Virus record (IMG/VR): IMGVR_UViG_3300048907_000042
DNA: 48,368 bases
DNA from: a virus
Strand: one strand, 5' to 3'
This document shows positions 1-48,368 of the stretch, piece by piece. The position numbers and the translations under genes are program-made. The notes under the pieces are model-generated. The model did not search any database and was not told the origin of the DNA. It saw only the letters and a program-made list of their open reading frames with translations. How positions within the stretch are numbered: the stretch's first letter is position 1; each line of letters opens with the position of its first letter.

Positions 1-127
1 GCAACCGATCCCGAATCCTTTCCATCTGCTCCAACTGCTCAGGCGGATACAGCGCCAGCAGCTGTTCATATCTGGAAGCCATATCCATCTCCGAAGGTAA
101 GAGAACTAACGCAGCCAAACGTCCCCC
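1..127. repeat. terminal direct repeat, left copy (identical to 48242-48368)
   Basis: Exact 127/127 identity read directly. The boundary falls inside minus-strand ORF 48174-48329, which suggests a circular-assembly overlap rather than a physical DTR. Confidence 0.95.
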
Positions 128-132
128 AAGCC

Positions 133-161
133 ATAATACCCCTCGGTACGAAGTATGTCAA
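133..161 (-). promoter_or_regulatory. near-consensus sigma70 promoter firing leftward (across the junction into 48329)
   Basis: The minus strand reads TTGACA (161-156), a 17-nt spacer, then TATTAT (138-133). It lies about 45 nt upstream of the GGAG-ATG of the first minus-arm gene. Confidence 0.7.
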
Positions 162-475
162 CAAGGCCGACGAACTGAGGAGGACGAGTATACTATCAAA
201 GTTCAGAGTATCTCGCAGATTTCATTCAGCCTCACCCCCCGCCCGAGCGCCTCGCACTTTGCCCCCACCCGGCCTAATTTTCACGGCCGAACGTCCTACC
301 TACCCCCCGGTAGGGTCAGCGGTACTTTCATACGTCGGTGATGATGTAGTGTTGTAGCGGACCACTACACCAATGCAGCACACATGTATCACACTACCCA
401 TGTGAATAGTTCCACGGGCTGTGCGTCCTATGTTCCACGCAAGATGAACCGTTAATAATTCTAATGCACTTCTTT

Positions 476-511
476 TTGAATTGTTGTCGGCGTTCTCCGT
501 CGTAACATATG
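476..511 (+). promoter_or_regulatory. conserved bipartite promoter-like element R1 (TTGAAT-N16-CGTCGTAACATATG)
   Basis: 28/36 identical to 5209-5244 with identical spacing. The geometry is ECF-like (xGAAT-N16-CGTC). It lies 48 nt upstream of ATG 559. Confidence 0.5.
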
Positions 512-558
512 CGGGGGATGACCCACCGCACTACCCACAAGCCACCGGAGATGAACAC

Positions 559-864
559 ATGAACACCACTTCCACCACCGTCAAGACGAAGCCCGACGCA
601 CGCGCTGAGGCCATTGAAACCGCCCTGGAAATCAATTGGGAGGGTATGGAACGCGATGACCTGATCGCACTGGCGCAGCAGACCCTTGTCATCAAGCTGC
701 AGGGCGGCTGGCGAAAGAATGGCATTCCCTCGGAGTGCAAGGTGAATGCTACTGACCACAAGGTCGGCGTCCGCGCTCCGCGCAAGCCTGCCGACCTGGC
801 CGCGCTGATCGGGAAGTTGTCCCCGGAAGAACGCGAGGCGCTGCTCGCCAAGCTCACCGCCTGA
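559..864 (+). CDS. small early protein, paralog family member A (C-terminal LSPEEREALLAKL tail)
   Basis: ORF 481-864 trimmed to ATG 559 (GGAG 8 nt upstream). The INWEGM..LAQ core and the C-terminal tail are shared with 5625-6005, 8235-8570 and 14787-15017. Confidence 0.65.
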   Translation: MNTTSTTVKTKPDARAEAIETALEINWEGMERDDLIALAQQTLVIKLQGGWRKNGIPSECKVNATDHKVGVRAPRKPADLAALIGKLSPEEREALLAKLTA

Positions 865-934
865 TCGGACGAAACAGGGTGGGCTGCGGCCCACTCTGTC
901 GCCGGAATAGAACCGGCCTGACGAGTCCTGTGCC

Positions 935-1147
935 ATGAGCCGCAATCGTAATAACTACCCATTCCACAATGCGCCTGTCGGTGCGAGTGAGCGCAGCCTC
1001 CTGGTCAATGCGCTGCTCAAAGATGCGCGGCAGAATCGTGCCAAGCGCGCCTGGCGTAAATGGTTCTGGCGTATTGTGGCAGTAGTGGGAAGCCTCCTGT
1101 TCACGGTCGTGTTCTTCTATCTCGCCACGGGAGATATTCGCTGGTGA
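935..1147 (+). CDS. small membrane protein (one C-terminal hydrophobic helix)
   Basis: 70-aa ORF with a basic N-terminus and the helix IVAVVGSLLFTVVFFYLA. No clear SD. Confidence 0.45.
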   Translation: MSRNRNNYPFHNAPVGASERSLLVNALLKDARQNRAKRAWRKWFWRIVAVVGSLLFTVVFFYLATGDIRW

Positions 1148-1153
1148 TACTAC

Positions 1154-1170
1154 TGTCCCAAATTGGGACA
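1154..1170. repeat. 17-bp palindrome TGTCCCAAATTGGGACA, copy 1
   Basis: Exact motif, intergenic, 6 nt after the stop codon at 1145-1147. Confidence 0.95.
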
Positions 1171-1376
1171 CGTCTAGATACTGTTACAGTGTTTAGATGT
1201 TTTTGCGTTGCAACCCGGCATCCCCGTGCCTTAGCTTTAAAAAGACAAAAAAAAAAGAATGAAAGAACTAACGGGCATGGGGGGTTGCAACGTGATAACA
1301 TGTAAACATTCCAACATTCCTGGGACCGATGACGGTTCTAGTCCGCACCAACGGGAAGTATAGAGGGAGAAAGGTA

Positions 1377-1664
1377 ATGGATAAGAAGGGACCAATGGAG
1401 GATGCTGTGTTGCGCCTGTCGGGCAAGATGGCTACTCCGCATGTGCAGGGCAACCTGCCCATTGACGAGTACAGCGTGGAGACTACCGTCAATGAAGCTG
1501 AGCGGGAAGTAGTGTTGAAGGCCAATGCTATGCTCACGCTAGCGGATCACATCGACGAAACTGTGTATCCGCAGGGTGGCAGTCGGCCTGTTGGACGGCT
1601 CACTCGTAGTGAGTGGGACTTGATTTGCTACGCACTGCGGTATACCGCCGACAGTGACAACTGA
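1377..1664 (+). CDS. hypothetical protein
   Basis: ORF 1329-1664 trimmed to ATG 1377, which is preceded by AGAGGGAGAAAGG. Confidence 0.55.
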   Translation: MDKKGPMEDAVLRLSGKMATPHVQGNLPIDEYSVETTVNEAEREVVLKANAMLTLADHIDETVYPQGGSRPVGRLTRSEWDLICYALRYTADSDN

Positions 1665-1680
1665 CAATGGGAGTGTGAAC

Positions 1681-2004
1681 ATGTGCCATCTGTGCATCGC
1701 GCAGGCTATCCTTAATGACCTTAAGGTTGACGCCGAGCGCTCCGGTGATCCGGTCCTCGAGGCCGAGTGTGAGGTGATGCAACGTCATCTCGATATGCGG
1801 CGTGCCCTCGACGAGAGCATCCTGCTGTGTGATTCTGTGCTGAAACACCAGCCGAACCATCCCATCGCTGCGCGGTTCCAGTTCCTGCGTGAGCGCATGG
1901 TGCAACTCGACCGGGCCATCTGTGATATGGGTCAGCAGATGGAAACCATCATCATGGCTGGCGACGTGCAGGCTACCGCACCCGGTAGCGATCGCGTCAA
2001 CTGA
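1681..2004 (+). CDS. hypothetical protein
   Basis: ORF 1654-2004 trimmed to ATG 1681 (GGGAG 7 nt upstream). Confidence 0.55.
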   Translation: MCHLCIAQAILNDLKVDAERSGDPVLEAECEVMQRHLDMRRALDESILLCDSVLKHQPNHPIAARFQFLRERMVQLDRAICDMGQQMETIIMAGDVQATAPGSDRVN

Positions 2005-2021
2005 CCGCACCATCTCGGTGC

Positions 2022-2051
2022 ATGGGCTGGGGAGGCAACTCCCTGGCCCAT
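2022..2051 (+). other. 30-nt imperfect palindrome / hairpin (ATGGGCTGGGGAGGCAACTCCCTGGCCCAT)
   Basis: Read directly. It lies between genes ending at 2004 and starting at 2071. Only a weak T-tract follows, so terminator status is uncertain. Confidence 0.3.
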
Positions 2052-2070
2052 TGCCGTTTCCGGAGGTTGT

Positions 2071-2370
2071 ATGTCACGCATCTATTCGACGGATTACTGC
2101 GAGTACACGTGCCCTGCCGTGGACGATGCAGCCGAGTCCGCACTTGACGACCTGAAGGAAATGGTGCCAAGTAGGCTGCACGCCGACCTCGACCGCACCA
2201 TGACCAACCTGATCCACGAAGTGAAGCACAGTGGTACTGAAAAGCTCCGGACTGCACTGGAGCGATGCTGTACGGACCTGCAAGAGGCCCGACTCGAACT
2301 GGCGGCAGCCGAGCTGCACGTCCAGCAACTCCAACATCAACTCGACAACATGGTGGTAGCTTATGAATGA
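2071..2370 (+). CDS. hypothetical protein (coiled-coil-like C-terminus)
   Basis: 99-aa ORF with GGAGG 5 nt upstream. Confidence 0.6.
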   Translation: MSRIYSTDYCEYTCPAVDDAAESALDDLKEMVPSRLHADLDRTMTNLIHEVKHSGTEKLRTALERCCTDLQEARLELAAAELHVQQLQHQLDNMVVAYE

Positions 2371-2545
2371 GACCCTGCACGATGCGCTTGAGCGTATCAT
2401 CAACATCTGCCGTCAGCAGCATGGCCTGAAGGATGCGGACACGCCGCCTGAGGCCGTCGAAGCACTGTCGGGCATCATCGACAAGGCCAGCCGGGCGCAG
2501 CGCGTGATCCGGGCCACTACTGATCGCAACGCGGGAGACAAGTGA
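2363..2545 (+). CDS. hypothetical protein
   Basis: 60-aa ORF whose start overlaps the upstream stop (ATGAATGA coupling). Confidence 0.55.
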   Translation: MNETLHDALERIINICRQQHGLKDADTPPEAVEALSGIIDKASRAQRVIRATTDRNAGDK

Positions 2546-2769
2546 TGCCTGCCTTGTATCTCCCCGACCTGTTGGCTGCCGTGCAAGCTGCAGCCACACA
2601 AGCCAAGATCTTGAATGGTGCCTTGCGCCATCTCAAGGCCGGCTGTGATGACCTGACCGACTCGCAGGACTATTACCTGTCCGAAGCGGCCGACAACCTC
2701 AACACTGCCGCATCGTATCTGGATGACGCGGCTATTCGCATCGCCGATGGAGTGAAACATGGTCCCTGA
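2545..2769 (+). CDS. hypothetical protein
   Basis: ATG overlaps the upstream TGA (TGATG). Confidence 0.55.
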   Translation: MPALYLPDLLAAVQAAATQAKILNGALRHLKAGCDDLTDSQDYYLSEAADNLNTAASYLDDAAIRIADGVKHGP

Positions 2770-2953
2770 ACTCGACGCACGCAACAAGCTGATCCACCAG
2801 TTGCAGGCGGCACAGCAGATGCTGCTCGAAACGAAACAGACGGCTATGGAAGCCAACTCCCTCGCAATGGAAGTCCCGGCCATTCAGCGCGTTGATGCGA
2901 TGGCTAAGGAATGCGGTGAACTGATGCGGCAAGTGTCGCGCATGAGGTGGTAA
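2759..2953 (+). CDS. hypothetical protein
   Basis: 64-aa ORF with GGAG upstream and an 11-nt overlap with the previous gene. Confidence 0.55.
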   Translation: MVPELDARNKLIHQLQAAQQMLLETKQTAMEANSLAMEVPAIQRVDAMAKECGELMRQVSRMRW

Positions 2954-2954
2954 T

Positions 2955-3170
2955 ATGTCCTACGATACAGCGGAGACAATCCGCGCGTGGCTGAGGGATA
3001 ACCCCGGCTACCATTTCACGGACGACCTGCTGGAGGGGTGCGTAGCACGTAATCCCAACCACACTCGCAGCCAGTACCGAGTCAGCCTGTATCAGCTGGA
3101 GCGGTCCAAGAACTCGGTTGTGGAAGCGGGCGGCTCGTCTGTGACCCGGAAGTGGAGGTACAAGCAATGA
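2955..3170 (+). CDS. hypothetical protein
   Basis: 71-aa ORF with GAGGTGG upstream. Confidence 0.55.
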   Translation: MSYDTAETIRAWLRDNPGYHFTDDLLEGCVARNPNHTRSQYRVSLYQLERSKNSVVEAGGSSVTRKWRYKQ

Positions 3171-3559
3171 CCCTCCACACCGTTCGCCCTCGGCCCCGCG
3201 CCCGCTATTACGAACCGTATTGGTACGTGTGGCATGGAGGGCGTATGGCCGTAGGTGCTACGCTGGGCGAGGCTTATGACATTTGGCTCGTCCATTGGTG
3301 TAACTCTGTGGTAGGTGACTACCGGAGGGAGTACAGTGAAGTTAGTGATCTTTGGAAGTCGCCCGAAGTACTTGCCGCAAGGTTTCTCTCTCAATATGCA
3401 AGTGGACCTTATTGCATCGGCTGTGGAAAAATTTCAGTTGCAGCCAACCGAGATAGTAACAGGGATGGCACAGGGGATCGACACGGCAGCTATCATCTAT
3501 GCCCGCAATGTGAACTTGAAGATCAAGCCCTTCCGGGCAGACTGGGACGTGGATGGTAA
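3167..3559 (+). CDS. hypothetical protein (3' half overlaps the next gene out of frame)
   Basis: ATGA start-stop coupling with the previous gene. The last roughly 224 nt overlap the better-supported SLOG-like ORF. Confidence 0.35.
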   Translation: MTLHTVRPRPRARYYEPYWYVWHGGRMAVGATLGEAYDIWLVHWCNSVVGDYRREYSEVSDLWKSPEVLAARFLSQYASGPYCIGCGKISVAANRDSNRDGTGDRHGSYHLCPQCELEDQALPGRLGRGW

Positions 3560-3725
3560 GGCGGCTGGCAAAATCCGTAACAAGCAAATGGCTATGTATG
3601 CCGACGTAGGTCTCGGCTTGCAATGGCAGGATAGCCCTGGCACTCAGCACATGATTGAGATTATGAAGTCGCTGAGGAAACTCTGCTACACTGTTAACGA
3701 TGGGAATCTCGACTATGCATTCTAA
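3336..3725 (+). CDS. SLOG / DUF2493-like nucleotide-binding protein
   Basis: GTG 3336 follows GGAGGG. Motifs VIFGSR, GMAQGIDTAA and ADWD..GK.AG..RN are typical of the DUF2493/SLOG family (from memory). Confidence 0.6.
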   Translation: MKLVIFGSRPKYLPQGFSLNMQVDLIASAVEKFQLQPTEIVTGMAQGIDTAAIIYARNVNLKIKPFRADWDVDGKAAGKIRNKQMAMYADVGLGLQWQDSPGTQHMIEIMKSLRKLCYTVNDGNLDYAF

Positions 3726-3948
3726 CGTCGACTTGAGGACGGCGATCATTCTCGCGGCTGTCCTCCTCCGTGACAACGGAGACACATACACCGCAACGCT
3801 CGAAAACATCCGGGAGATTACCGACCGCGACTGGATCATCACCAAGAACCACAACCCGGATGGCTCGGTGACCTTCACCCTGACCGAGAACACAGTTCAC
3901 CCCAACCAGATGGCTCTCCATCTGCCCAACAGCCACACAGGAGATTGA
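3715..3948 (+). CDS. hypothetical protein
   Basis: ORF 3700-3948. The start is ambiguous (ATG 3700 or 3715). Confidence 0.45.
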   Translation: MHSNVDLRTAIILAAVLLRDNGDTYTATLENIREITDRDWIITKNHNPDGSVTFTLTENTVHPNQMALHLPNSHTGD

Positions 3949-3950
3949 CC

Positions 3951-4376
3951 GTGGAAAACGAAGAATACACCCCGGAACAGATGCACGCCATGCAGATGGA
4001 TGCGTGGGCGGGCCTGCACATCAACCAGCTCGCCGAGCTGACTCACGCGCTCAATCGTCAGGTTGGCTGGTGGAAAGAGTACGATGAAATGCCTGAGAAG
4101 TATCGCAAGCACTTCATCGCCGGCAAGCTGGCACTGGTTCACAGTGAAGTCAGCGAGGGTCTGGAAGGCTTCCGTAAGGGCCTGATGGATGACCATCTGC
4201 CGCACCGCCCGATGGTGGAAGTGGAAATGGCAGATGCCATCATCCGCATCCTGGACCTCGCCGGTGCTATGAACCTCGACCTGGGTGGCGCCGTCGCTGA
4301 GAAGCTGCTCTACAACACTCAGCGTCCCGACCACAAGCTGGAAAATCGGGAGAAGGATGGAGGGAAGTCGCTGTGA
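3951..4376 (+). CDS. MazG-like nucleoside triphosphate pyrophosphohydrolase
   Basis: GTG 3951 lies 7 nt after AGGAG. The pattern LVHSEVSEGLEGFRKG...EVEMADAIIRILDLAG...EKLLYNTQRPDHK is the MazG-type EExxE/D helical pattern. Confidence 0.7.
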   Translation: MENEEYTPEQMHAMQMDAWAGLHINQLAELTHALNRQVGWWKEYDEMPEKYRKHFIAGKLALVHSEVSEGLEGFRKGLMDDHLPHRPMVEVEMADAIIRILDLAGAMNLDLGGAVAEKLLYNTQRPDHKLENREKDGGKSL

Positions 4377-4561
4377 AGGACGAACGCATGTGCGTAGGCA
4401 TGTCGGAAGGTGAAGTCTGCAACCGCAACGAGTGTCAGGGTACCATCGAACTCGAAGACGGTGAGGACTGCGCCTGCCACATCAGCCCACCGTGTCACTA
4501 CTGCCTCGAACGCAGGTTCGTCTGCACTGCCTGTGGCATCTGCCCGGACGAAGAAACGTAA
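4373..4561 (+). CDS. Cys-rich (about 10 Cys) putative zinc-binding small protein
   Basis: GTGA overlap with the upstream stop. CxxxC/CxC/CxxC spacing suggests zinc binding. Confidence 0.55.
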   Translation: MKDERMCVGMSEGEVCNRNECQGTIELEDGEDCACHISPPCHYCLERRFVCTACGICPDEET

Positions 4562-4590
4562 CCAATCAGATTGGGGCACGGGGCAACTCG

Positions 4591-4607
4591 TGTCCCAATT
4601 TGGGACA
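4591..4607. repeat. 17-bp palindrome TGTCCCAATTTGGGACA, copy 2
   Basis: Exact motif, intergenic. Confidence 0.95.
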
Positions 4608-4641
4608 CCCCTAGAAGTCACACGAACCACGGAACTCTTTC

Positions 4642-5190
4642 ATGAAGGCTGGCATCGTCTCCTCCATCCGCATCAACCCCAAGGATTGCCAATCCATCCT
4701 GGACGTCCTCGACAAGGCGGGCGTGTACACGCAGGGCATGTCCTTTGCTAGCATGGTATCCCTCGCTCTCGGCTCGCTGCTCGAAGCGGCCCGCAAAGAC
4801 GGCATCATCCCCGAACCTGACCCGTTCCAGTACCTCAACCGTCTGCAGCCGTACATCAAGGCTAAGCACGCCCGCAAACTGGAAGTCACCAAAGTTCTCC
4901 ACAACGCAGGAGCGACCCTGCAGGCCCCACCGGTCACTGCTAGCCTGACGGAGCCGCAGGCGGAGGACGCCTTCGCATCCGCCGTTCAGCTGCCGACCTC
5001 TGGCGGAGGCGGCGGGGCTCCATCCGCGCCGGAGTATTCGGACGAAGAGATCCGCGAAGCATCCTCACGGCTCACGGAGCTGCTGCACAAGAAAGACCTC
5101 GTTGACGCGCAGGCACCGGGTGCAACCTGGACGGATGCCGACACTGCCGAGTACGTGAAGGTCTTCAATATCGTCTATCCCGATGGTTGA
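4642..5190 (+). CDS. hypothetical protein
   Basis: 182-aa ORF and the first gene after palindrome 2. It has a Gly/Pro-rich linker. Confidence 0.65.
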   Translation: MKAGIVSSIRINPKDCQSILDVLDKAGVYTQGMSFASMVSLALGSLLEAARKDGIIPEPDPFQYLNRLQPYIKAKHARKLEVTKVLHNAGATLQAPPVTASLTEPQAEDAFASAVQLPTSGGGGGAPSAPEYSDEEIREASSRLTELLHKKDLVDAQAPGATWTDADTAEYVKVFNIVYPDG

Positions 5191-5211
5191 ATCCTATTGC
5201 AATAGGGATTG
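5190..5211 (+). other. imperfect palindrome AATCCTATTGCAATAGGGATT (possible terminator/operator)
   Basis: Read directly. It starts at the stop codon of 4642-5190 and abuts promoter-like element R2. Confidence 0.3.
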
Positions 5212-5244
5212 AATTATTGGCGCTGGAATCCGTCGTAACACATG
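5209..5244 (+). promoter_or_regulatory. conserved bipartite promoter-like element R2 (TTGAAT-N16-CGTCGTAACACATG)
   Basis: 28/36 identical to R1 with the same spacing. It lies 32 nt upstream of ATG 5276. Confidence 0.5.
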
Positions 5245-5275: not shown

Positions 5276-5623
5276 ATGAACAAGCAAAAGGTTATCGAAA
5301 AACTCAAGCTCGGGCGGGCACTCATTGCCGACCGTAATCGCTGGACGCAGGGTGCCTACGCACGGGCTTATGCTGATGTTCCGGGCGAGTTGAAGGGCTT
5401 CCACTGCATGGCACGTTCTGATCGCGCTGTCTGCTGGTGCAGCGTTGGTGCTATCAAGAAGGTGGCACCCTTTGAAATTGACGAAGCGCCGCTGTATAAG
5501 GAGCTTCTCAAGACCGTGACCGACAACAGCACCTACGAGTCGGTCGAACAGTTCAACGACAGCAGCAGCCACGAAGCCGTCCTGGCAATGTGGGATGCGA
5601 CTATCGAACGGCTGGAGGCGTAA
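5276..5623 (+). CDS. hypothetical protein
   Basis: 115-aa ORF. The W.QG / C.CS.GA / ND..SH..VL pattern recalls a small phage protein family, but I have no firm identification. Confidence 0.65.
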   Translation: MNKQKVIEKLKLGRALIADRNRWTQGAYARAYADVPGELKGFHCMARSDRAVCWCSVGAIKKVAPFEIDEAPLYKELLKTVTDNSTYESVEQFNDSSSHEAVLAMWDATIERLEA

Positions 5624-11397: not shown

Positions 11398-12367
11398 CTT
11401 CACCAAGAACGCCGTCTGCTACGACAACACCAGACTGTCCGAGTTCAAGCGTTGCCCGCGCGCATTCTACATCCGTCATGTGATGGGTTGGAATACCAAG
11501 GGCACCGGCGACGCACTGGTGTTCGGCTCCTCGTGGCATGAAGGGCAGGACATTATCTGGAAGTGCGGCAAGATGTGGGGTGAAGGTCAACTCACCCAGC
11601 ATGACGTAGTTGAAATGGCCTACCAGAACTTCATGAAGTGCTGGGTGGAGAACGGCTTCCCCGAGGTGATGGACGAAGATGCTTTCGACCGACTCGGCGC
11701 ACGTACTCCGGGCACGGCCAAGGAGATGATGTGGAACTACATGACGGAACGTCAGCATATCCTGACGAACTGTAATGTCATCGGCATCGAGCAGCCGTTC
11801 GCAGTACCGCTGCCCGGAGTGGACAACACCTTCTACGTCGGCCGTCTCGACAAGTCGGTGGAGTACAATGCTGGTACCTACATCATCGAACACAAGACGA
11901 CCACGGCCTACGATGTGAAGAACGGTTTCCGTTCTGACTACATCGAAAGCTGGTTCGCGTCGTCGCAGGTGAAGGGCTACCAGTTCGGCGGCGGGTTGTT
12001 CTATCCCGGCCTGACAGGTGTGTGGGTGGATGCTGCGCTGGTCCACAAGAAGCAGCACGATCACTTCCGCTTCGTCCCGGTCTCGCACTCGCCCGTCCTC
12101 CTGATGGAGTGGCTGGAGAACACGCGCCAGTGGGTCGAGCAGGTGAACGAGTCTCGCCGACAGGCTGAGGCTGGGTACAAGCTGAGCAAGGCGTTCCCGA
12201 AGAACGAGGACTCCTGCTTCGGCAAGTTCGGCAAGTGTCCGTTCCTCGATATCTGCATGACCTGTGCAGACCCGAGAGAACTTCCCGGTCCGCCGGCAGG
12301 TTTCGAGGTATCCTTCTGGGAACCGTTCGATCTGCTTGGTCTGGACAAGTTGATCAAGGAGAAGTGA
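11387..12367 (+). CDS. Cas4/RecB-like PD-(D/E)XK exonuclease with Cys cluster
   Basis: GRLDK...IIEHKTT is a D..ExK-type core. The N-terminal Cys (FKRCPRAFY) plus the C-terminal CFGKFGKCPFLDIC suggest an Fe-S cluster as in Cas4/AddB. Confidence 0.8.
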   Translation: MTTDFTKNAVCYDNTRLSEFKRCPRAFYIRHVMGWNTKGTGDALVFGSSWHEGQDIIWKCGKMWGEGQLTQHDVVEMAYQNFMKCWVENGFPEVMDEDAFDRLGARTPGTAKEMMWNYMTERQHILTNCNVIGIEQPFAVPLPGVDNTFYVGRLDKSVEYNAGTYIIEHKTTTAYDVKNGFRSDYIESWFASSQVKGYQFGGGLFYPGLTGVWVDAALVHKKQHDHFRFVPVSHSPVLLMEWLENTRQWVEQVNESRRQAEAGYKLSKAFPKNEDSCFGKFGKCPFLDICMTCADPRELPGPPAGFEVSFWEPFDLLGLDKLIKEK

Positions 12368-13450: not shown

Positions 13451-13467
13451 TGTCCCAATTTGGGACG
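13451..13467. repeat. palindrome TGTCCCAATTTGGGACG, copy 4 (15-nt core exact)
   Basis: The core spans 13452-13466, 4 nt after the stop at 13444-13446. TGGGAC-N15-CGTC has the same geometry as R1 and R2. Confidence 0.95.
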
Positions 13468-13531
13468 CTAGTTAACCCCGCCGTCCACCTGCATCCGGCA
13501 GGCACGGTATCAACCAACCAAGAGAAAACAC

Positions 13532-22838: not shown

Positions 22839-23163
22839 TACTCAGCTCCGGGTTCAGGAGAATGAAGTCTCCATTCTCGGTAACGATGAAGTCTCCATTG
22901 GCCCCAAGCAACTGAGGCTCCATGAAGGGTACGAAAACATCTGCGGGCATGGCCTGAGTCCACGGTGGAATCTGTACGTCCTCAGTACCACGCACGAAGT
23001 CTTGCGGCTGACGCGGCTCCCAATGTTCAGGGCAGACGTAGTAACCCTGCCAATGCCTGCGCAGGGTACTACCTTTCTTCTTTCTGCCACACTCATAGCA
23101 TACAGCATTCCAGTCGCCATGTGCGTAGTAGTCGGAGCCGCCCTTTCCGTCACGGACGCTCAC
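22825..23163 (-). CDS. conserved podovirus virion-module protein with CxxC...CPEHW motif
   Basis: GTGA coupling to the upstream giant gene. Motif HGDWNAVCYECGRKKK...YVCPEHWEPRQPQDFVRG. Confidence 0.6.
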   Translation of the reverse strand: MSVRDGKGGSDYYAHGDWNAVCYECGRKKKGSTLRRHWQGYYVCPEHWEPRQPQDFVRGTEDVQIPPWTQAMPADVFVPFMEPQLLGANGDFIVTENGDFILLNPELSNGES

Positions 23164-26100
23164 AGGGAACCTCCACCTTTCTTCTTCTCTTTCGCCTTGC
23201 GTTCCTCAGCTTCGTACTGCCGCATCTGCTCGGCGATGTAAGGACCAACGCCCGGCACCAGATAGCGATACATAGCCGGGTCCTGTGTAGCAATGTCCGT
23301 CCACATCTTGAACGGCGGAGTGAACATTTCCGGGATAGCCTTATGCGGCTCAGGCTTAATCTCCCTCGAGTACTTCTGTCCGCTAGCCCTACGCTCAGCA
23401 GCTTCCTTCTTGCTGACACCAAGGATCCGGTCACGGGTGTACTCGTTGAAGCCGAACGTCTTGATTGCGTTGAGCGGAATGTCCATGACACTGACCTTAA
23501 TGTCTTTCGACTCCCTGCCAGTCAGTGCGCTCACTCCGTTGGTCATGAACTGCTTGATCAGATCAGACGCGGTTCCTGCCAGACCCATCAGGATGCCAAG
23601 CTCGGTCAGCTTCAGAGCACCCTGTGCGATCTTACCCTGTTTCATCAGGCCAATGCCATCACGCCTTGCCAGATCGAACTGCTTCAGCATAAAGGACTTC
23701 AGCACCAATGCAGAGCGTCCCACATTCGGACTGTCCAGCCACCACTGAGGCATTTCAAACTTGGTGACCGGCTGAGACCGGGACAACTCCAGGAAGGCAT
23801 ACTCCCTCGTCAACTCACTGACCTTACCAGACTTCAACTCACTGACCAGCTTGGGGAAGTCATCGCCGAATGCTACTGCGTACTTGTTGGCCAGCTTAAG
23901 CTGACCACTCGGCGATTCAGCCAGTCGCTGCGCACGCGAGATAGCTGCGTTGAGCGCAGTGTTCTTACCGAACTGATCGACACCAGTGAAGAGGGTAGCC
24001 TTGAAGATCTTGTTGACGTAGGCTGCCGTCTTACTCTGCGTAGCGAACTCCGCAGTGATCGTGTCTACCAGTCCGTACTCTTTCATGTTCACGAACTTCC
24101 TGCCAGTCGCCTGCCGGATAACAGAGTCCAAGGTGGCCCTCATATCCTGCGTGTAGACCTGCATGATGACGTCGCCCATCTGAGTAGCAGCCGACCAGAA
24201 GTTACCCAGCAGACCGGCACTCGCAAGGTTCTTCGCCTCACGCACAATCCAAGCGGGAGCCTGATCGCCAGTCACCAACGTGGACTTCAACAGCTTGGCA
24301 AGTTCGTTCGCATTCTCGTCCGGCATACCTGCCTTGATTTCATCAGCCAGCAGGTTATTGATGGACTTGTCCACGTCGAGGAACCGCTGCTCACCCTTCA
24401 CCTGTTCGACCTTCGACTTGCCGAAGAAGTTCGTACGGCCAATATCTTCCACGGCCGACCGGATGTAGGTATGCAACGATTCAGCCGGGGTTGCATAGAA
24501 CGGCAGCAACTCCGGAGTGATTTCCTCGATCTTACGATCCTTCGTCCAGCCCGGCTGGTTACTCCGCTTGTCCACGAACATCATCTGATTCATGATAGCC
24601 GATTCCTCAGCCTGACTCAGACCACGTCCGCGAGTACGCATCGACTCAACCTCAGCCGCCTTCAAGGCATCAGCTATGTTAGTCGCTTCCTTCTTGTCGA
24701 TGGCCTGGAAGAGCCCTTCCTTATCCTTGATGATGCGCGGGAAGTATTCCTTCGTATCCTTACGCTTGAACCGGGACTGCGATTCCAGCTTATCTCCCAG
24801 GCTGTCCAGTACGGAGCGGATCGACTTGTAACCATCGATCAGTTCCTTGTCACCCAGATGCTCCAGCAACTTCTTGATCACAACAGGATCACCCGTCATC
24901 AAAGCACGGGACACAACCTGCTGCGTATCCTGCGGCATCTTATCCAGCCTGCTCAGGAACGGATCAACCTTCTGGAACTGGACGTGAGTTTCTTCCATGG
25001 TCTTGCGGAACAGGTTCACCACTGCACGATGCACGCGAGGGGAATGGTTCATGACTCGAGTCGACGTAGCACCCAAGCCATAGTCGATACCCTGAACCAG
25101 TGATGCACCGACCTTACCGGACAGCAGCAGCCCAGCCACAGTACCTACACCCATACCCCAGACCGGGCTGTCATCACTCATAGCCCAGCCAAGCGCAGCG
25201 CCCGCAGCAGCCATACCCATCTTCTTCAGCATGGCCGGATCAACTTCACCACGCTGACTACGCGGACCGCGAACCTCACCACCGAACTCAGACTTGATGG
25301 AATCCTGCAGCATCTCCTTCGCACGCTGGATGCGGCGCTGCACAGTACCCAACGGAGTGCCAGTCAGTTCTGCAATCTCGACGTCCGTGTAGTTCTCCAG
25401 CTGGGACTTGATGATCGCATCCTTCATTTCCGGAGACAGCTTCTCGAAGGCACGTTCCATCTGACTTGCCGCTTCCCCGTAGAGCATCGCACCCTCAGGG
25501 GTATCGTACATGTCAGCGCCAGCGCCCTTCTCGTACACGTTCGACCCAGTACCCTGATCGCCGGAGTAAGCATCCCGGACTCCCGGAACCTCCTCACCTA
25601 CGATCTGATAATCAGCACCACGCTTCTGTGCCTTCATCCGGTCGATAGCATCGAGCGCCTCGTTGCGTGCAATCTTCTTGATCCACGCACCGAAGGGAGC
25701 ATCCTTACTGTAGCTCTCGAGATTCTGGAAAGCCTTGATGAACGCTTCCTGCGTCACATCGTCAGCATCCAGTCCGGCCTTCTCACCAAGCTCACGCATG
25801 AACTTGTTGACGTAGCGCCTGGTGTCCGGGAAGTGAGCTTCGTACAGACCCTGATGACCCCGCTGGTCACCTGCCACAGCCTGATCCACCCACGAGTTAT
25901 CGCGCGCCTTGATCTGCTCAATGTCCAGTTTGTTTGCCATCTTGCCCTTGGACACCAGCATCCCGATGATGTTACCTTCGGGATCGATCATGCCTGCCTG
26001 ACGCAGCTTACCCGGAATGGATACCTTGATACCACCACGACCAGGACCGGGAACCAGCAGACCTGCCAACCCAACCATCACTGCATTGGTCAGCCTACGA

Positions 26101-28484
26101 TCCTCAGGAGAGAACGTATAGGCCAGACCTGCTGCGGTACTGGCAAGACCAACACGGGCCAGCAGAGTCGGATCAACCTCACCACGCTGCTGCCACTTCG
26201 GCTTGCGCAGCTGAGATTCCCGGCGACGAATCTTAGCTTCCGTCTGCTTGATCGTCGGATCATCCTTGGTGAACAGGGCGTCCAAGTACTCATCGTTGTT
26301 CAGCTTACGAGCAGCATTGAAGGCGTTGTCCTCGTTCACTGCTTCGGCATAAGCACTGTCGAACTCCTTAGCGTTCCGTGCCTCGATAGCATCGTCGAAC
26401 TCCTTCTGGAGGGCAGCACGGCGTGCCTCCGTGGAAAGGCGCCGAGCATCGGCCTCCCGAGCCAGCCGCGCCTTCTGGCGCCCTGCGGCCTCCGCCGCCA
26501 CTTGCGCGCGCTGCATACGTTCATCAGCAACGTAGTTCAGGTAGTCGGCATAGTCCGCTTCATTGCGGAACGTTTCCTTGATTTCCTTACGCCGCTGCTG
26601 GACGAGCTTCTCACGATCAGCGTTCTTCGTGATGCCCAGCATCTGATTGATCTTGTCGACGTTGGTAGTGGGAGCCTCGCCCTTGATGATGCCTTCGAGT
26701 GCCACGTCAGCGGCAGCCTGATCCTTCAGGATTTGCTCGTAGGTACCATTGATCTTCGACTGTGCAAGGTCAGCGCTGCGAGCCTTAGCACCACGCATGA
26801 ACACTGCGCCCATAGGACCACCGATCAGGTAGCCCATCGCAGCATTCATCTTCACTTCCTCAATGTTCACGTCGCCAGTGGTAGCGAGGTTCTGCACCGC
26901 GCCGATGCCTACGTTCATAGCCGCCGCAGTGGTACCTGCGTCGATCATGGCGTCTGCAATGCGAGCAGCACGGCTGGCAGTAGTGATACCACGCGCAGCC
27001 TGCGCAGCCTGAATCGGCTTAGCGCCAATGCCGACAGGAGCAAACAGCAACTCCGGATCGGCCATCAGCGAGTTGGCCAACTGGCCAGCGAACTTACCCG
27101 GCGAGTCCTTCGCAGCCTGCTGCAGGTTATCCCACATAGCACGGACGTCCGGGTCCTGCTTGGCCTTGCGAGCGTCGATAGCCTTCTGAGCTTCGCGTAC
27201 CGAGACTTCGGGGAACTTGTCAGGGTTGTTGACGATCTCATTCTGCATTGCAACCTTGCGGGCCTCGTCATACTTCTTGCGTTCCAGCTCAGGCTGGTTG
27301 GCCAGGAAGCTAACGAAGTTCGCCGGCAAGCTATCGCTGGTCAGCAGGTCCATCGGATTCTTCAGCGTCTCGATGAACTGCTGGAACGTGCCAGCGTTCT
27401 TGGTCACAGTGTCCGGGGCCAGATGCTTGAAGCGAGCCGGCAGCATATCCACCTGACTCGGATCATCCTTGATGCGCTGCTTCCACTGCTGTTCCTCGTC
27501 GTAGGACGGGGTAGCACTGACGCGGCGAGTACGTCCACCGGTCAAGTCAGCAAGCTCCTTGTACTCATCGAAGGTGGCAGGTGCCTGAACGCCGAAGCCG
27601 AACTTGCCCTGACCCTTCTTCTTCTGCTCGTACTCAGCGCGCAGTTCTTCATCAGTCATCTGAACTTCGATGGTGTCTCGGTTCAGGATTTCCTGAATAC
27701 CCTGCCAGCCACGCTGGATGCCGCGAGCTGCACCCTTGACCATTGCCAGCGGAGAGTACTTCTCAATGTACTCATCAGCGCCGGCCTTGATGCGATCCAC
27801 AGCCTGCTGGCTATCCTTAGGCAGGATGCCACCGGAGAACGGACCGCCATCACCACTGACTACCTTGTCAGTGCCCGGCACCGGAACAGCGGGGGTATCA
27901 ACCTTCACCGCGTCCTCGAAGGAGAACGATTCCGGCTCGTCGGACGGCGATGCTTCCGGCAACTGGAAGGTATCGTCACCCAGCTCCTTGGCAATGGCAG
28001 CGGCCTTCGCCATGATGCTAGCGGTATACGCGCGAGTCTTCTTACCATGCTGCTTGGGGTTGTCGCCAGCATGATGGGCAGCGATAGCCCACTCGATACC
28101 CTTACCCAGCCGCTCAGCCATCTGCTTCGCAGCAGCATTGGCGGACTGACCAGCATCGAGAGGGTCAATGCCCATACCCTTGGCGGTCGAGTCCAGGTAC
28201 TGGAACATACCCTTGGCCGTACCCCACTTAGTCATGGGGCCGACGGCACTCGGGTTGTACGTGGACTCCTGATGGGCCATAGCATACATCACCGGAAGCG
28301 GCACACCATTCTTCTTCGCAGCTTCCGCGATGACGTTGCGGAGGTTCTGATCGGACGGCAGCAGACTGCCATCAGGGATGCTGACCTGACCATAGTCCTG
28401 GACAGTGGGCTTAGCGCGGCTACGATCAGCCACGTCCAGCGTCAGGCCCTTGCTTGCATCCTCGAACGAAAACGACTCGGCCAT
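23160..28484 (-). CDS. giant ejected internal virion protein (T7 gp16-like): N-terminal lytic transglycosylase plus internal ECF sigma factor module
   Basis: 1774-aa uninterrupted ORF. ATG 28484 follows GCAGGAG. It has an SLT motif at the N-terminus and sigma regions 2 and 4 at residues about 865-1060. It sits in the internal-core gene position. Confidence 0.9.
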   Translation of the reverse strand: MAESFSFEDASKGLTLDVADRSRAKPTVQDYGQVSIPDGSLLPSDQNLRNVIAEAAKKNGVPLPVMYAMAHQESTYNPSAVGPMTKWGTAKGMFQYLDSTAKGMGIDPLDAGQSANAAAKQMAERLGKGIEWAIAAHHAGDNPKQHGKKTRAYTASIMAKAAAIAKELGDDTFQLPEASPSDEPESFSFEDAVKVDTPAVPVPGTDKVVSGDGGPFSGGILPKDSQQAVDRIKAGADEYIEKYSPLAMVKGAARGIQRGWQGIQEILNRDTIEVQMTDEELRAEYEQKKKGQGKFGFGVQAPATFDEYKELADLTGGRTRRVSATPSYDEEQQWKQRIKDDPSQVDMLPARFKHLAPDTVTKNAGTFQQFIETLKNPMDLLTSDSLPANFVSFLANQPELERKKYDEARKVAMQNEIVNNPDKFPEVSVREAQKAIDARKAKQDPDVRAMWDNLQQAAKDSPGKFAGQLANSLMADPELLFAPVGIGAKPIQAAQAARGITTASRAARIADAMIDAGTTAAAMNVGIGAVQNLATTGDVNIEEVKMNAAMGYLIGGPMGAVFMRGAKARSADLAQSKINGTYEQILKDQAAADVALEGIIKGEAPTTNVDKINQMLGITKNADREKLVQQRRKEIKETFRNEADYADYLNYVADERMQRAQVAAEAAGRQKARLAREADARRLSTEARRAALQKEFDDAIEARNAKEFDSAYAEAVNEDNAFNAARKLNNDEYLDALFTKDDPTIKQTEAKIRRRESQLRKPKWQQRGEVDPTLLARVGLASTAAGLAYTFSPEDRRLTNAVMVGLAGLLVPGPGRGGIKVSIPGKLRQAGMIDPEGNIIGMLVSKGKMANKLDIEQIKARDNSWVDQAVAGDQRGHQGLYEAHFPDTRRYVNKFMRELGEKAGLDADDVTQEAFIKAFQNLESYSKDAPFGAWIKKIARNEALDAIDRMKAQKRGADYQIVGEEVPGVRDAYSGDQGTGSNVYEKGAGADMYDTPEGAMLYGEAASQMERAFEKLSPEMKDAIIKSQLENYTDVEIAELTGTPLGTVQRRIQRAKEMLQDSIKSEFGGEVRGPRSQRGEVDPAMLKKMGMAAAGAALGWAMSDDSPVWGMGVGTVAGLLLSGKVGASLVQGIDYGLGATSTRVMNHSPRVHRAVVNLFRKTMEETHVQFQKVDPFLSRLDKMPQDTQQVVSRALMTGDPVVIKKLLEHLGDKELIDGYKSIRSVLDSLGDKLESQSRFKRKDTKEYFPRIIKDKEGLFQAIDKKEATNIADALKAAEVESMRTRGRGLSQAEESAIMNQMMFVDKRSNQPGWTKDRKIEEITPELLPFYATPAESLHTYIRSAVEDIGRTNFFGKSKVEQVKGEQRFLDVDKSINNLLADEIKAGMPDENANELAKLLKSTLVTGDQAPAWIVREAKNLASAGLLGNFWSAATQMGDVIMQVYTQDMRATLDSVIRQATGRKFVNMKEYGLVDTITAEFATQSKTAAYVNKIFKATLFTGVDQFGKNTALNAAISRAQRLAESPSGQLKLANKYAVAFGDDFPKLVSELKSGKVSELTREYAFLELSRSQPVTKFEMPQWWLDSPNVGRSALVLKSFMLKQFDLARRDGIGLMKQGKIAQGALKLTELGILMGLAGTASDLIKQFMTNGVSALTGRESKDIKVSVMDIPLNAIKTFGFNEYTRDRILGVSKKEAAERRASGQKYSREIKPEPHKAIPEMFTPPFKMWTDIATQDPAMYRYLVPGVGPYIAEQMRQYEAEERKAKEKKKGGGSL
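25305..25889 (-). other. ECF (group 4) sigma factor domain, regions 2 and 4, inside 23160-28484
   Basis: DADDVTQEAFIKAFQNLESYSKDAPFGAWIKKIARNEALD is region 2-like. LSPEMKDAIIKSQLENYTDVEIAELTGTPLGTVQRRIQRAKEMLQ is region 4.2-like. Compared by eye with E. coli RpoE. Confidence 0.8.
28005..28352 (-). other. SLT lytic transglycosylase domain inside 23160-28484
   Basis: AMAHQESTYNPSAVGP...AKGMFQYL carries the catalytic E-S motif and the GLMQ-like motif. Confidence 0.8.
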
Positions 28485-28497
28485 TACAATCTCCTGC

Positions 28498-28514
28498 TGT
28501 CCCAATTTGGGACA
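28498..28514. repeat. 17-bp palindrome TGTCCCAATTTGGGACA, copy 6
   Basis: Intergenic. On the minus strand it is followed by GCAGGAG and ATG 28484. Confidence 0.95.
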
Positions 28515-28527
28515 TTAGTGGGCTCGG

Positions 28528-47778: not shown

Positions 47779-47795
47779 TGTCCCAAATTGGGACA
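47779..47795. repeat. 17-bp palindrome TGTCCCAAATTGGGACA, copy 9
   Basis: Exact motif, intergenic, 18 nt after the stop at 47814. Confidence 0.95.
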
Positions 47796-47813
47796 GTAGG
47801 CGTGGAGAGGGTT

Positions 47814-48107
47814 TCACTTGAGGTTCTGTTTCTGGAGACGACCCACACCCGAGCGGGCACCAGCAGTGAGACCGCGTGCGGTACTCATTGCGTCAGCACC
47901 ATTCGCGCGAGTGGCAACCTGTGCCTTGCCCATATCAGCGGTCTGCGGACCCCTTCCGCCAGCCGAGGCCCTCGAGGAGGTCGAGCCAGTACTGGTATTC
48001 GTGGACGGAGAACGCTTCTTGTCCACGTTCCCGATCTTCTTGTCGATCGCCTTCGACACCGGATCGACCTTGTGGATCGCGTTCCGGATTTTCTTGAAAA
48101 GTCCCAT
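47814..48107 (-). CDS. hypothetical basic low-complexity protein
   Basis: ORF trimmed to ATG 48107, which follows GGGAG. This is the second gene behind the sigma70 promoter. Confidence 0.55.
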   Translation of the reverse strand: MGLFKKIRNAIHKVDPVSKAIDKKIGNVDKKRSPSTNTSTGSTSSRASAGGRGPQTADMGKAQVATRANGADAMSTARGLTAGARSGVGRLQKQNLK

Positions 48108-48173
48108 CGTGGTTATCTCCCGTGCCAGCCGGCACATCGTCTAAAGGCTTTGCCGAGCGCAGCGAGGTTAGCA

Positions 48174-48329: not shown

Positions 48330-48368
48330 CTCCGAAGGTAAGAGAACTAACGCAGCCAAACGTCCCCC
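48242..48368. repeat. terminal direct repeat, right copy (identical to 1-127)
   Basis: Exact identity read directly. Confidence 0.95.

What the first reader, a model, noticed from the sequence alone, without database searches (positions are those of the whole stretch)
476..5244. Two copies of a conserved ECF-promoter-like bipartite element in front of early gene blocks
R1 (476-511, ttgaattgttgtcggcgttctccgtcgtaacatatg) and R2 (5209-5244, ttgaattattggcgctggaatccgtcgtaacacatg) are 28/36 identical. The blocks TTGAATT and CCGTCGTAACA are invariant and sit at exactly the same spacing. Both lie in rare intergenic gaps, 48 and 32 nt upstream of the next ATG. R2 directly follows a hairpin at the end of the preceding gene. 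With a 17-bp spacer the -10 position reads GTCGTA, which is not sigma70-like. The geometry xGAAT-N16-CGTC is instead that of group-4 (ECF) sigma promoters, for example B. subtilis SigW TGAAAC-N16-CGTA and the PvdS-type TAAAT-N16-CGT. A third, weaker candidate has the same geometry: TGGGAC-N15-CGTC at 13461-13485, where the right half of palindrome 4 would act as the -35, upstream of the SSB-like gene. Inference: these are the targets of the virion-borne sigma module described at 25305-25889.
Basis: partly seen in the sequence, partly recalled or inferred. Interest (0 to 1): 0.7.

Follow-up and report, generated by a model that had tools for sequence, protein, structure and literature searches.

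The report
Phage early promoters for its own sigma
Two conserved, non-standard promoter-like sites sit in front of this phage's early genes and match the type read by stress-type (ECF) sigma factors, and the phage carries such a sigma factor inside a giant protein that is probably injected with the DNA, which would be a new way for a virus to take over host transcription.

Summary
TTGAATT-N14-CCGTCGTAACA occurs exactly twice in the window (476-507 and 5209-5240, + strand), against about 0.03 expected by chance. Each copy lies in an intergenic gap just upstream of a block of small + strand genes. Both sites are kept, with diverged spacers, in four related metagenomic phages. More distant relatives carry the same two-box geometry at the same places with different boxes. 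The element is not sigma70-like, although a conserved near-consensus sigma70 promoter lies 320 nt away on the other strand. It fits the E. coli sigmaE layout exactly: TGAATTG-16 nt-TCGTA-6 nt-G, against GGAACTT-16-TCAAA-5/6-purine.

The phage encodes an ECF sigma module (sigma2 plus sigma4) inside a 1774-aa protein that starts with a lytic transglycosylase domain. The module's closest sequence and fold matches are sigmaE, AlgU and SigW. Across relatives, the -35 box changes together with the sigma4 recognition helix. The best reading is that these are cognate early promoters for the phage's own sigma. Delivery of that sigma from the virion is plausible but unproven. No transcription data exist, the host is unknown, and only five subclade pairs support the covariation.

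The parts
476..511 (+). R1, a promoter-like element in the divergent control region, in front of the first rightward gene block (ATG at 559).
   Evidence: Exact match to the pattern. Conserved at the same position in L003 (2044) and L005 (1027), with different spacers.
477..483 (+). R1 -35 box, TGAATTG, aligned to the sigmaE GGAACTT. The invariant block is TTGAATT at 476-482.
   Evidence: Invariant in all 9 aligned sites. Register taken from the sigmaE layout in PMC1312014.
499..504 (+). R1 -10 box, GTCGTA (core TCGTA at 500-504), 16 nt after the -35 box.
   Evidence: The block CCGTCGTAACA is unchanged in 7 of the 8 sites of the window's subclade and has one change (AATA) in L002. Across the wider clade the core is [GA][TA]C[GAC][TA]A.
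511..511 (+). Predicted transcription start of R1 (G, 6 nt after the -10 box). This is an inference.
   Evidence: SigmaE promoters have a 5/6-nt discriminator and start at a purine. The TG at this position is invariant.
510..530 (+). Stem-loop at the predicted 5' end of the R1 transcript.
   Evidence: Folds at -12.9 kcal/mol. A stem-loop sits at the same place in L003, L005 and L113 with different sequences. The z-scores are not individually significant.
451..475 (+). A/T-rich stretch directly upstream of the R1 -35 box; possibly an UP-like element.
   Evidence: 19 of 25 bases are A or T in a genome that is about 57% GC. SigmaE promoters have A/T-rich UP sequences. The functional role is an inference.
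5209..5244 (+). R2, the second copy, between gene 4642-5190 and gene 5276-5623.
   Evidence: Exact match. Conserved after the orthologous 'YPDG' gene in L002, L003, L005 and L010, and in diverged form in L004, L007, L008, L012, L014 and L021; L030 carries a related element in front of the orthologous downstream gene.
5210..5216 (+). R2 -35 box, TGAATTA.
5232..5237 (+). R2 -10 box, GTCGTA. The predicted start is G5244.
23160..28484 (-). Gene for the 1774-aa protein that carries the transglycosylase domain and the ECF sigma module; probably an ejection (internal virion) protein.
   Evidence: Pfam SLT, Sigma70_r2, Sigma70_r4_2 and Sigma70_ECF, all above their cut-offs. 32 homologues with sigma domains (29 of them also with SLT) lie on contigs of up to 48 kb. 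It sits among the structural genes.
25296..25895 (-). ECF sigma module (sigma2 at about 25638-25847, sigma4 at about 25308-25463), the proposed reader of R1 and R2.
   Evidence: TIGR02937 at 90 bits against a cut-off of 42.9. SigmaE 1or7 at 1e-13 and SigW 5wuq at 1.2e-13. AlphaFold model with pLDDT 80-94 for sigma2 and 66-87 for sigma4. Top Foldseek hits are AlgU, sigmaE and SigW; 4lup gives TM 0.88 at 1.7 A.
28035..28334 (-). N-terminal lytic transglycosylase (SLT) domain of the same protein.
   Evidence: Pfam SLT at 2.2e-9. tblastn matches to the N-termini of giant 'DarB-like/PLxRFG' phage proteins.
133..161 (-). Near-consensus sigma70 promoter (TTGACA-17-TATTAT) that drives the leftward genes. 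It serves as an internal contrast to R1.
   Evidence: 11 of 12 matches. The hexamers are conserved and the spacer is free in L003 (TTGACG-17-TAATAT) and L005 (TTGACA-17-TATGAT).
1170..1205 (+). Terminator-like hairpin plus T-run that ends the short R1 transcription unit.
   Evidence: 14-pair stem followed by TTTTT. Relatives L008 and L009 have a terminator at the equivalent place.

Best explanation
R1 and R2 are ECF-type (group 4 sigma) promoters for the rightward early genes. The host core RNA polymerase reads them when it carries the phage's own ECF sigma module, which is embedded in the 1774-aa transglycosylase-containing protein.

Proposed anatomy:
- an A/T-rich upstream stretch;
- a -35 box, TGAATT(G/A);
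- a 16-nt spacer;
- a -10 box, (G)TCGTA;
- a 6-nt discriminator;
- a start at G511 (R1) and G5244 (R2).

Shown here: the elements exist, are conserved, have ECF geometry, and covary with the phage sigma4 helix. Also shown: the sigma module is a full sigma2 plus sigma4 ECF fold.

Inferred: these sites start transcription, the phage module (not a host sigma) reads them, and the module arrives with the virion, so these would be the first promoters used.
For: 1. Two exact copies against 0.03 expected. In 1.6 Mb of related phage DNA, sites with 3 or fewer mismatches are the window's 2, 6 syntenic sites in relatives, and 1 likely chance hit.
2. In relatives whose ligase is 72-83% identical, both boxes are unchanged (one substitution in L002) while the 14-nt spacers diverge. 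The neighbouring sigma70 promoter evolves in the same way.
3. There is no sigma70 -10 box. At 16-18 nt spacing the hexamers are CGTCGT, GTCGTA and TCGTAA, and the sigma70 scan finds nothing on the + strand there.
4. The element fits the published sigmaE layout exactly: GGAACTT-16-TCAAA, a 5/6-nt discriminator, a purine start and an A/T-rich UP region (PMC1312014).
5. The phage encodes an ECF sigma module. The long ORFs examined that matched a family are ligase, helicase, nuclease, polymerase, primase, portal, terminase and a DUF285 fibre-like protein, and none matched an RNA polymerase family.
6. The boxes covary with the sigma4 helix:
   - helix TVQRRIQRAK or TIQRRIQRGK (window, P0005, P0011) goes with TTGAATT;
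   - helix TVKSRLFQGR (L036), close to sigmaE's TVRSRIFRAR, goes with TTGAACC and -10 boxes ATCAAA/ATCCAA, that is, canonical sigmaE-type boxes;
   - helix NARQISSR or NVRQILSR (P0029, P0017) goes with TTGTCAC.
7. A conserved stem-loop sits at the predicted 5' end of the R1 transcript.
Against: - There are no transcript 5' ends or any other experimental data, and the host is unknown.
- The -35 box reads GAAT, not the AAC that is typical of ECF promoters.
- In some relatives the syntenic site looks sigma70-like: L113 has TTGACA-17-TGGAAT, L007 has TATAAT, and L030 has TTGTCA-17-CATCAT.
- The covariation rests on about five sigma-promoter pairs in three helix classes and is confounded with phylogeny.
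- No R element precedes the sigma gene itself, although ECF sigma genes are usually autoregulated.
- A sigma fixed inside a 1774-aa protein has no precedent, and it is unknown whether it is released.
Confidence: 0.6

Rival explanations
1. The elements are promoters, but a host ECF sigma of the RpoE/AlgU type reads them, for example after envelope stress caused by infection. The phage sigma module would then have another role.
For: The geometry and -10 box are close to the host sigmaE consensus. Relative L009 carries near-canonical GAAC...TCAAA boxes.
Against: All 10 sites of the window's subclade read GAAT and lack the conserved C of GGAAC. The -35 box changes between phage subclades together with the phage's own sigma4 helix, which host sigmaE recognition would not predict. 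The phage carries its own sigmaE-like module.
Confidence: 0.12
2. They are weak or activator-dependent sigma70 promoters. TTGAAT would be the -35 box, with an unusual -10 region.
For: Every subclade keeps TTG at the start of the upstream box. Some relatives have passable sigma70 hexamers at the syntenic site: L030 TTGTCA-17-CATCAT, L113 TTGACA-17-TGGAAT, and L007 TATAAT.
Against: In the window's subclade no hexamer at 16-19 nt has both A at position 2 and T at position 6; the candidates are CGTCGT, GTCGTA, TCGTAA and CGTAAC. TAACAT lies 21 nt away, and it is TAACAC or TAATAC in R2 copies. The same phages keep a consensus sigma70 promoter 320 nt away, so a good sigma70 promoter was available to them.
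Confidence: 0.1
3. They are ECF-type promoters read by the phage sigma, but only by newly made protein late in infection. In that case they are not immediate-early promoters and the sigma is not delivered from the virion.
For: The sigma gene lies in the late, structural arm. Packaging of the protein has not been shown.
Against: R1 and R2 precede small genes and the replication module, which are typical early and middle functions. No other promoter is evident for them. The protein has a transglycosylase N-terminus and a modular 'cargo' build typical of ejected proteins.
Confidence: 0.15
4. They are not promoters at all. They would be binding sites for a phage regulator or replication protein, or leader RNA elements.
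For: Only two copies per genome. R2 has a short GGATT...AATCC inverted repeat.
Against: Two boxes are conserved around a free spacer, both copies face the genes, they lie 31-47 nt from start codons, R1 has no dyad symmetry, and there is no Rfam match. A family with the same geometry but different boxes exists in relatives.
Confidence: 0.06

Closest known systems
E. coli sigmaE (RpoE) / P. aeruginosa AlgU promoters and sigma
   Same: The layout is the same: a -35 box, a 16-nt spacer, a TCnnA -10 box containing GTC, a 5/6-nt discriminator, a purine start and an A/T-rich upstream region. The phage sigma module's best sequence and fold matches are sigmaE and AlgU. The sigma4 helices are alike: PLGTVQRRIQRA in the phage against PVGTVRSRIFRA in sigmaE.
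   Different: The -35 box is GAAT rather than GAAC, and the -10 box is TCGTA rather than TCAAA. The sigma is not a free 190-aa protein but a module inside a 1774-aa phage protein. No anti-sigma factor was found. There is no autoregulatory copy upstream of the sigma gene.
B. subtilis SigW promoters (TGAAAC-N16-CGTA; consensus from my own knowledge)
   Same: The TGAA-type -35 box and the CGT-containing -10 box. SigW is the second-best PDB sequence match.
   Different: The spacing fits only for the CGTC register. The organism and context are unrelated.
Phage N4 virion RNA polymerase and its early promoters; also the virion polymerases of phiKZ/AR9 and the crAss-like phages (own knowledge; AR9: PMC5449584, seen)
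   Same: A transcription protein is encoded among the late genes, presumably packaged, and would act on a few special promoters in front of the early genes of the next infection. It is a central functional module inside a giant virion protein.
   Different: Those phages inject a complete polymerase. Here only a specificity subunit would be injected, and the host core enzyme would do the work. The promoters are two-box ECF-type sites, not DNA hairpins.
T7 gp16 (an internal core/ejection protein with an N-terminal transglycosylase) and the T7 early promoters A1-A3 (own knowledge)
   Same: A giant protein with an N-terminal lytic transglycosylase in a podovirus-like genome. Host polymerase transcribes the early genes.
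   Different: T7 early promoters are strong sigma70 promoters, and gp16 carries no sigma domain.
Free-standing phage sigma factors (T4 gp55, SPO1 gp28, phiEco32 gp36; own knowledge)
   Same: A phage-encoded member of the sigma70 family redirects the host core polymerase to phage-specific promoters.
   Different: Those are small proteins made early that switch on middle or late genes. Here the sigma is encoded late, fused into a structural-type protein, and its putative promoters precede early genes.

Membership tests
ECF (group 4) sigma-dependent promoter | A two-box element with an AAC-type -35 box and a CGT/GTC-type -10 box, 15-19 nt apart (usually 16). | tested here: met
   TGAATTG-16-TCGTA in both copies. 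The -10 box contains GTC. The -35 box has AAT instead of AAC in the window, but relative L009 has GAAC and TCAAA at the syntenic site.
ECF (group 4) sigma-dependent promoter | A cognate ECF sigma (sigma2 plus sigma4 only) is available in the same genome. | tested here: met
   Pfam and TIGR02937 above their cut-offs, PDB sequence search, and AlphaFold/Foldseek.
ECF (group 4) sigma-dependent promoter | A copy of the promoter lies upstream of the sigma gene itself (autoregulation; common but not universal). | tested here: not met
   No R-like site near 28484-28600. That gap holds the GTCCCAAATTGGGAC palindrome instead.
ECF (group 4) sigma-dependent promoter | Transcription starts 5-7 nt after the -10 box and depends on the sigma. 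| not testable with these tools
   No transcript data. The host is unknown.
Sigma70 (housekeeping) promoter | A TATAAT-like -10 box (A at position 2, T at position 6), 16-19 nt after a TTGACA-like -35 box. | tested here: not met
   The -35 box TTGAAT matches 4 of 6 positions, but the hexamers at 16-19 nt are CGTCGT, GTCGTA, TCGTAA and CGTAAC. The scan reports no + strand site there.
Virion-delivered transcription machinery (N4-like strategy) | The transcription protein is present in the virion and is ejected into the cell. | not testable with these tools
   Only indirect support. The protein has an SLT N-terminus, lies among the structural genes and has a modular central 'cargo'. That module is flanked by a repeated segment and by the protein's only two hydrophobic windows.
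Virion-delivered transcription machinery (N4-like strategy) | The delivered protein is itself an RNA polymerase. | tested here: not met
   Only sigma2 and sigma4 domains were found. No polymerase catalytic domain was found in this protein or in the other window ORFs that were scanned.
Free-standing phage sigma factor switching on late genes | A small separate sigma gene is expressed before its target genes, and the targets are middle or late genes. | tested here: not met
   The sigma is internal to a 1774-aa ORF in the late arm. The putative targets precede early and replication genes.

The most novel reading that the evidence does not exclude
The phage injects a sigma factor. The 1774-aa ejection protein would sit in the inner membrane by the two hydrophobic segments that bracket the sigma module, leaving the transglycosylase end in the periplasm and the sigma module in the cytoplasm. 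There the module would capture host core RNA polymerase and direct it to R1 and R2 on the entering DNA. The first phage transcripts would then need no host sigma and no phage polymerase, and transcription might also help pull the genome in. This would be the first virion-delivered sigma factor with its own cognate immediate-early promoters, and it would be shared by a whole uncultured phage clade.
Probability: 0.35. Interest if true: 0.92.

Novelty: new variant of a known kind. Interest (0 to 1): 0.8.

Why it matters
Phages are known to take over transcription in three ways. Some use host sigma70 promoters, some make their own sigma or polymerase after entry, and some inject a complete polymerase (N4, phiKZ, crAss-like phages). 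A sigma factor delivered inside an ejection protein, with matching promoters in front of the early genes, would be a fourth strategy: it borrows the host's catalytic core but brings the specificity along.

It would also supply a set of naturally diverged sigma-promoter pairs (GAAT, GAAC and TGTCAC types) that could be used to study ECF specificity or to build orthogonal expression switches. The promoter elements found here are what makes the idea testable, because they give exact sequences, predicted start sites and point mutations to try.

Tried and rejected
- **Third candidate, 13461-13485.** TGGGAC is the right arm of a palindrome present in 9 copies. None of the other copies has CGTC at that distance. 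The CGTC reads CATC or CCTC in close relatives that keep R1 and R2 unchanged. Rejected.
- **Relaxed scan** (TTGAAT and GTCGTA, 1 mismatch or fewer each, spacer 16-18). It found 6 extra hits against 3.5 expected. The only intergenic one (402) is not conserved. The one at 11448 on the minus strand is conserved only because it lies antisense inside the nuclease coding sequence. No further sites are accepted.
- **Exact motif search in IMG/VR.** 0 hits.
- **Isolated phages.** No close DNA relative. No isolate carries the SLT-sigma fusion.
- **Rfam and tRNA scans of the window.** Nothing found.
- **Literature.** Five full-text searches for a virion-borne or ejected sigma factor found nothing relevant.
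- **More sigma-promoter pairs.**
  - L120 did not reach the early region.
  - Whether L113's phage, which has a sigma70-like site, has a sigma module could not be settled.
  - No element could be recognised in L112.
- **Host.** Only MAG bin labels were found (Cellvibrionaceae, Anaerolineaceae). These are probably mis-binned phage contigs.
- **AlphaFold model.** The segments flanking the sigma module have low confidence, so the membrane topology stays an inference from hydropathy.

Full report
**What the window is.**
The 48,368-base window is a complete, circularly assembled phage-like genome of about 48.2 kb. Its first 126 bases are repeated at its end. It is about 57% GC.
- The + strand carries small genes of unknown function from 559 onwards. 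These are followed by a replication module: ligase, helicase, PD-(D/E)XK nuclease, AAA_24, DUF669, exonuclease, ParB-methylase, UDG-exonuclease, family A DNA polymerase and primase.
- The minus strand, from about 48.3 kb down to about 21 kb, carries the structural, packaging and lysis genes: terminase, portal, a DUF285 fibre-like protein with a podophage fibre-adaptor N-terminus, and a connector protein.
- None of the scanned ORFs matched an RNA polymerase family.
- No isolated phage is a close relative. The relatives are metagenomic contigs of 40-48 kb with the same gene order.

**The observation.**
R1 (476-511) and R2 (5209-5244) are as described and are 28/36 identical.
- TTGAATT-N14-CCGTCGTAACA occurs twice with no mismatches and nowhere else even with 3 mismatches. 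Shuffles give 0.03.
- Both copies face rightward, in intergenic gaps. R1 lies in the divergent control region between a leftward gene (start at 82) and the first rightward gene (559). R2 lies between genes 4642-5190 and 5276-5623.

**Comparative evidence that the sites are functional.**
I used the ligase as a handle to fetch the early regions of relatives. I then used the conserved 'YPDG' gene upstream of R2 and the first early gene as further handles.
- In the window's subclade, both sites are kept at the same positions. R1 is at L003 2044 and L005 1027. R2 is at L002 3825, L003 6965, L005 6315 and L010 740.
- In all of these, TTGAATT and CCGTCGTAACA are unchanged apart from one substitution in L002, while the spacers differ.
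- In 1.6 Mb of related sequence, the motif with 3 or fewer mismatches occurs only at these syntenic sites plus one probable chance hit.
- The same phages keep a near-consensus sigma70 promoter on the other strand. It reads TTGACA-17-TATTAT in the window (161..133), TTGACG-17-TAATAT in L003 and TTGACA-17-TATGAT in L005, again with a free spacer.
- So these genomes contain a textbook sigma70 promoter, and R1 and R2 are clearly something else.

**What kind of promoter.**
No hexamer 16-19 nt after TTGAAT has the A and the T that sigma70 needs. The element instead fits the published E. coli sigmaE layout position by position. That layout is GGAACTT, a 16-nt spacer (range 15-19), TCAAA within (T/C)GGTCAAAA, a 5/6-nt discriminator, a purine start, and an A/T-rich upstream region (PMC1312014).
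- R1 reads TGAATTG (477-483), 16 nt, TCGTA (500-504), 6 nt, G511.
- R2 reads TGAATTA (5210-5216), 16 nt, TCGTA (5233-5237), 6 nt, G5244.
- The 25 nt upstream of the R1 -35 box are 76% A+T.
- A stem-loop begins at the predicted 5' end of the R1 transcript. It recurs, with different sequences, in L003, L005 and L113.

**More distant relatives.**
They keep the geometry at the syntenic places but change the boxes:

| Locus | -35 region | -10 region |
|---|---|---|
| L004 | TTGAATT | CATCATA |
| L008 (two copies) | TTGTCAC | CGACATA |
| L030 | TTGTCAC | CATCATA |
| L014 | TTGTCAT | CGTCATA |
| L115 | TTGTTAC | CATCCAA |
| L009 (two copies) | TTGAACC | CATCCAA / CATCAAA |

- The L009 boxes are essentially canonical sigmaE boxes (GAAC and TCAAA).
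- The common -10 core across the clade is [GA][TA]C[GAC][TA]A.
- Some relatives have sigma70-looking sites instead: L113 has TTGACA-17-TGGAAT and L007 has TATAAT. The rule is therefore not universal.

**The sigma.**
The 1774-aa product of 23160-28484 (minus strand) has several recognisable parts.
- It has an N-terminal lytic transglycosylase domain.
- At aa 871-1070 it has Sigma70_r2, Sigma70_r4_2 and Sigma70_ECF matches, all above Pfam's cut-offs. TIGR02937 scores 90 bits against a cut-off of 42.9.
- Its best matches among solved structures are sigmaE and SigW.
- An AlphaFold model gives confident sigma2 and sigma4 domains. Its best fold matches are AlgU, sigmaE and SigW. At the level of single domains, it matches sigmaE region 2 bound to -10 DNA (TM 0.88, 1.7 A) and a sigma4 -35-binding domain (TM 0.82-0.84).
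- Thirty-two homologues of 1474-2223 aa carry sigma domains, 29 of them together with SLT, on contigs of up to 48 kb.

**Link between the sigma and the promoters.**
The sigma4 recognition helix and the -35 box change together:

| Phages | Sigma4 helix | -35 box |
|---|---|---|
| window, P0005 (L002), P0011 (L004) | TV/IQRRIQRA/GK | TTGAATT |
| L036 (the L009 phage) | TVKSRLFQGR | TTGAACC |

- The L036 helix is close to sigmaE's TVRSRIFRAR. Its region 2 (FYTWLYKI) is also sigmaE-like, and that phage uses sigmaE-type -10 boxes.
- This pattern is what recognition by the phage's own sigma predicts. Recognition by a conserved host sigmaE does not predict it.
- The sample is small and confounded with phylogeny.

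**Is the sigma delivered with the virion?**
This step is inferred, not shown. Several observations point that way.
- The gene lies in the structural arm.
- The transglycosylase N-terminus resembles those of giant internal proteins of other phages.
- The C-terminal ~650 aa are shared with more than 100 IMG/VR phage proteins whose central part differs: an ECF sigma here, a PcfJ-like region in L039, nothing recognisable in others.
- The sigma module is bracketed by a significant internal repeat (QRGEVDP followed by a Gly/Ala-rich stretch). The alignment score is 89, against 27.8 +/- 5.3 for shuffled sequences.
- The module is also bracketed by the only two hydrophobic 19-aa windows in the protein, aa 808-826 and 1115-1140.
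- This layout suggests two membrane segments, with the sigma module on the cytoplasmic side and the transglycosylase on the periplasmic side.

**The third candidate and other sites.**
- The TGGGAC of the proposed third promoter belongs to a palindrome, GTCCCAAWTTGGGAC, present nine times on both arms of the genome.
- No other copy has CGTC at that distance, and the CGTC is not conserved in close relatives. I reject it.
- A relaxed scan gives no further sites above chance.

**Verdict.**
- The reading as ECF-type promoters is well supported by anatomy and comparison.
- The assignment to the phage's own sigma is supported by covariation.
- Delivery from the virion is a reasoned inference.
- Five literature searches for a virion-borne sigma found nothing relevant.
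- The promoter type is a known kind. Its pairing with a sigma embedded in an ejection-type protein, in front of early genes, appears to be a new variant.

Noticed in passing
window 1155, 4592, 7926, 13452, 20587, 28499, 37148, 42986, 47780 (each 15 nt): There are nine perfect copies of the palindrome GTCCCAA(A/T)TTGGGAC, against about 1 expected. Most are intergenic and they lie on both arms. They often sit 7-15 nt before a start codon (for example the sigma-protein gene and the portal gene), with an oriented ACTAMT-like flank on the upstream side. In distant relatives the palindrome reads GTTCCAAATTGGAAC, with both arms changed together. The function is unknown; it could be a terminator or processing hairpin, or a regulator site.
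   Followed up: partly
window 25086-26084 (-), aa 772-830 and 1083-1140 of the 1774-aa protein: The sigma module is bracketed by a ~55-aa internal direct repeat (QRGEVDP followed by a Gly/Ala-rich stretch). It is also bracketed by the only two hydrophobic windows in the protein. This suggests a membrane-anchored 'cargo' cassette.
   Followed up: partly
L034-L111 (IMG/VR loci); e.g. L039 7280-12100, L058 8780-11989, L081 8993-11860: The C-terminal ~650 aa of the big protein define a much wider family of phage proteins (950-2400 aa). Their central part differs: an ECF sigma, a PcfJ-like region, or nothing recognisable. L109 has a weak region 2-only sigma match.
   Followed up: partly
window 1-126 and 48243-48368: The two ends of the window are identical. 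This is either a circular assembly overlap or terminal redundancy. The genome is about 48,242 bp.
   Followed up: yes
window 133-161 (-), and 47780-48326 (-): A conserved near-consensus sigma70 promoter drives two small leftward genes (50 and 107 aa), which end at a palindrome copy. Together with R1 this gives a symmetric pair of short divergent units, each closed by the palindrome. What drives the long structural operon beyond that point is unclear.
   Followed up: partly
window 198-235 and 257-275: Two blocks in the divergent control region, AGTTCAGAGTATCTCGCRGATTTCAT and TTTGCCCCCACCCGGCC, are conserved in L003 and L005. A similar TTTGCCCC block is seen in L009 and L112. No function was assigned; an origin, a packaging site or an operator are possibilities.
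   Followed up: no
window 1240-1330; L008 1060-1180; L009 4880-4995: After the first early unit there is a terminator, then a long A-run. In L008 and L009 a consensus sigma70 promoter follows (TTGACA-17-TATGAT and TTGACA-17-GATAAT). The window has only TGATAACAT (extended -10-like) there, and its CGTGATAACAT resembles the R -10 block.
   Followed up: partly
contig starts or ends of L002, L004, L006, L007, L008, L030, L120: Many linear relatives' contigs break inside the early region, 3-5 kb upstream of the ligase. This may reflect hypervariable early genes or true genome ends.
   Followed up: no
window 11417-11448 (-), and L002 10208, L003 11802, L005 11680, L006 4599: An R-like string (TTGAAC-17-GTCGTA) lies antisense inside the PD-(D/E)XK nuclease gene and is conserved in relatives. 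This is probably only because the region is coding sequence.
   Followed up: partly
window 13480-13505: There is a hairpin (CCTGC...GCAGG) upstream of the DUF669/SSB-like gene. The stem is kept while the loop sequence varies in L001, L002, L003 and L005.
   Followed up: no
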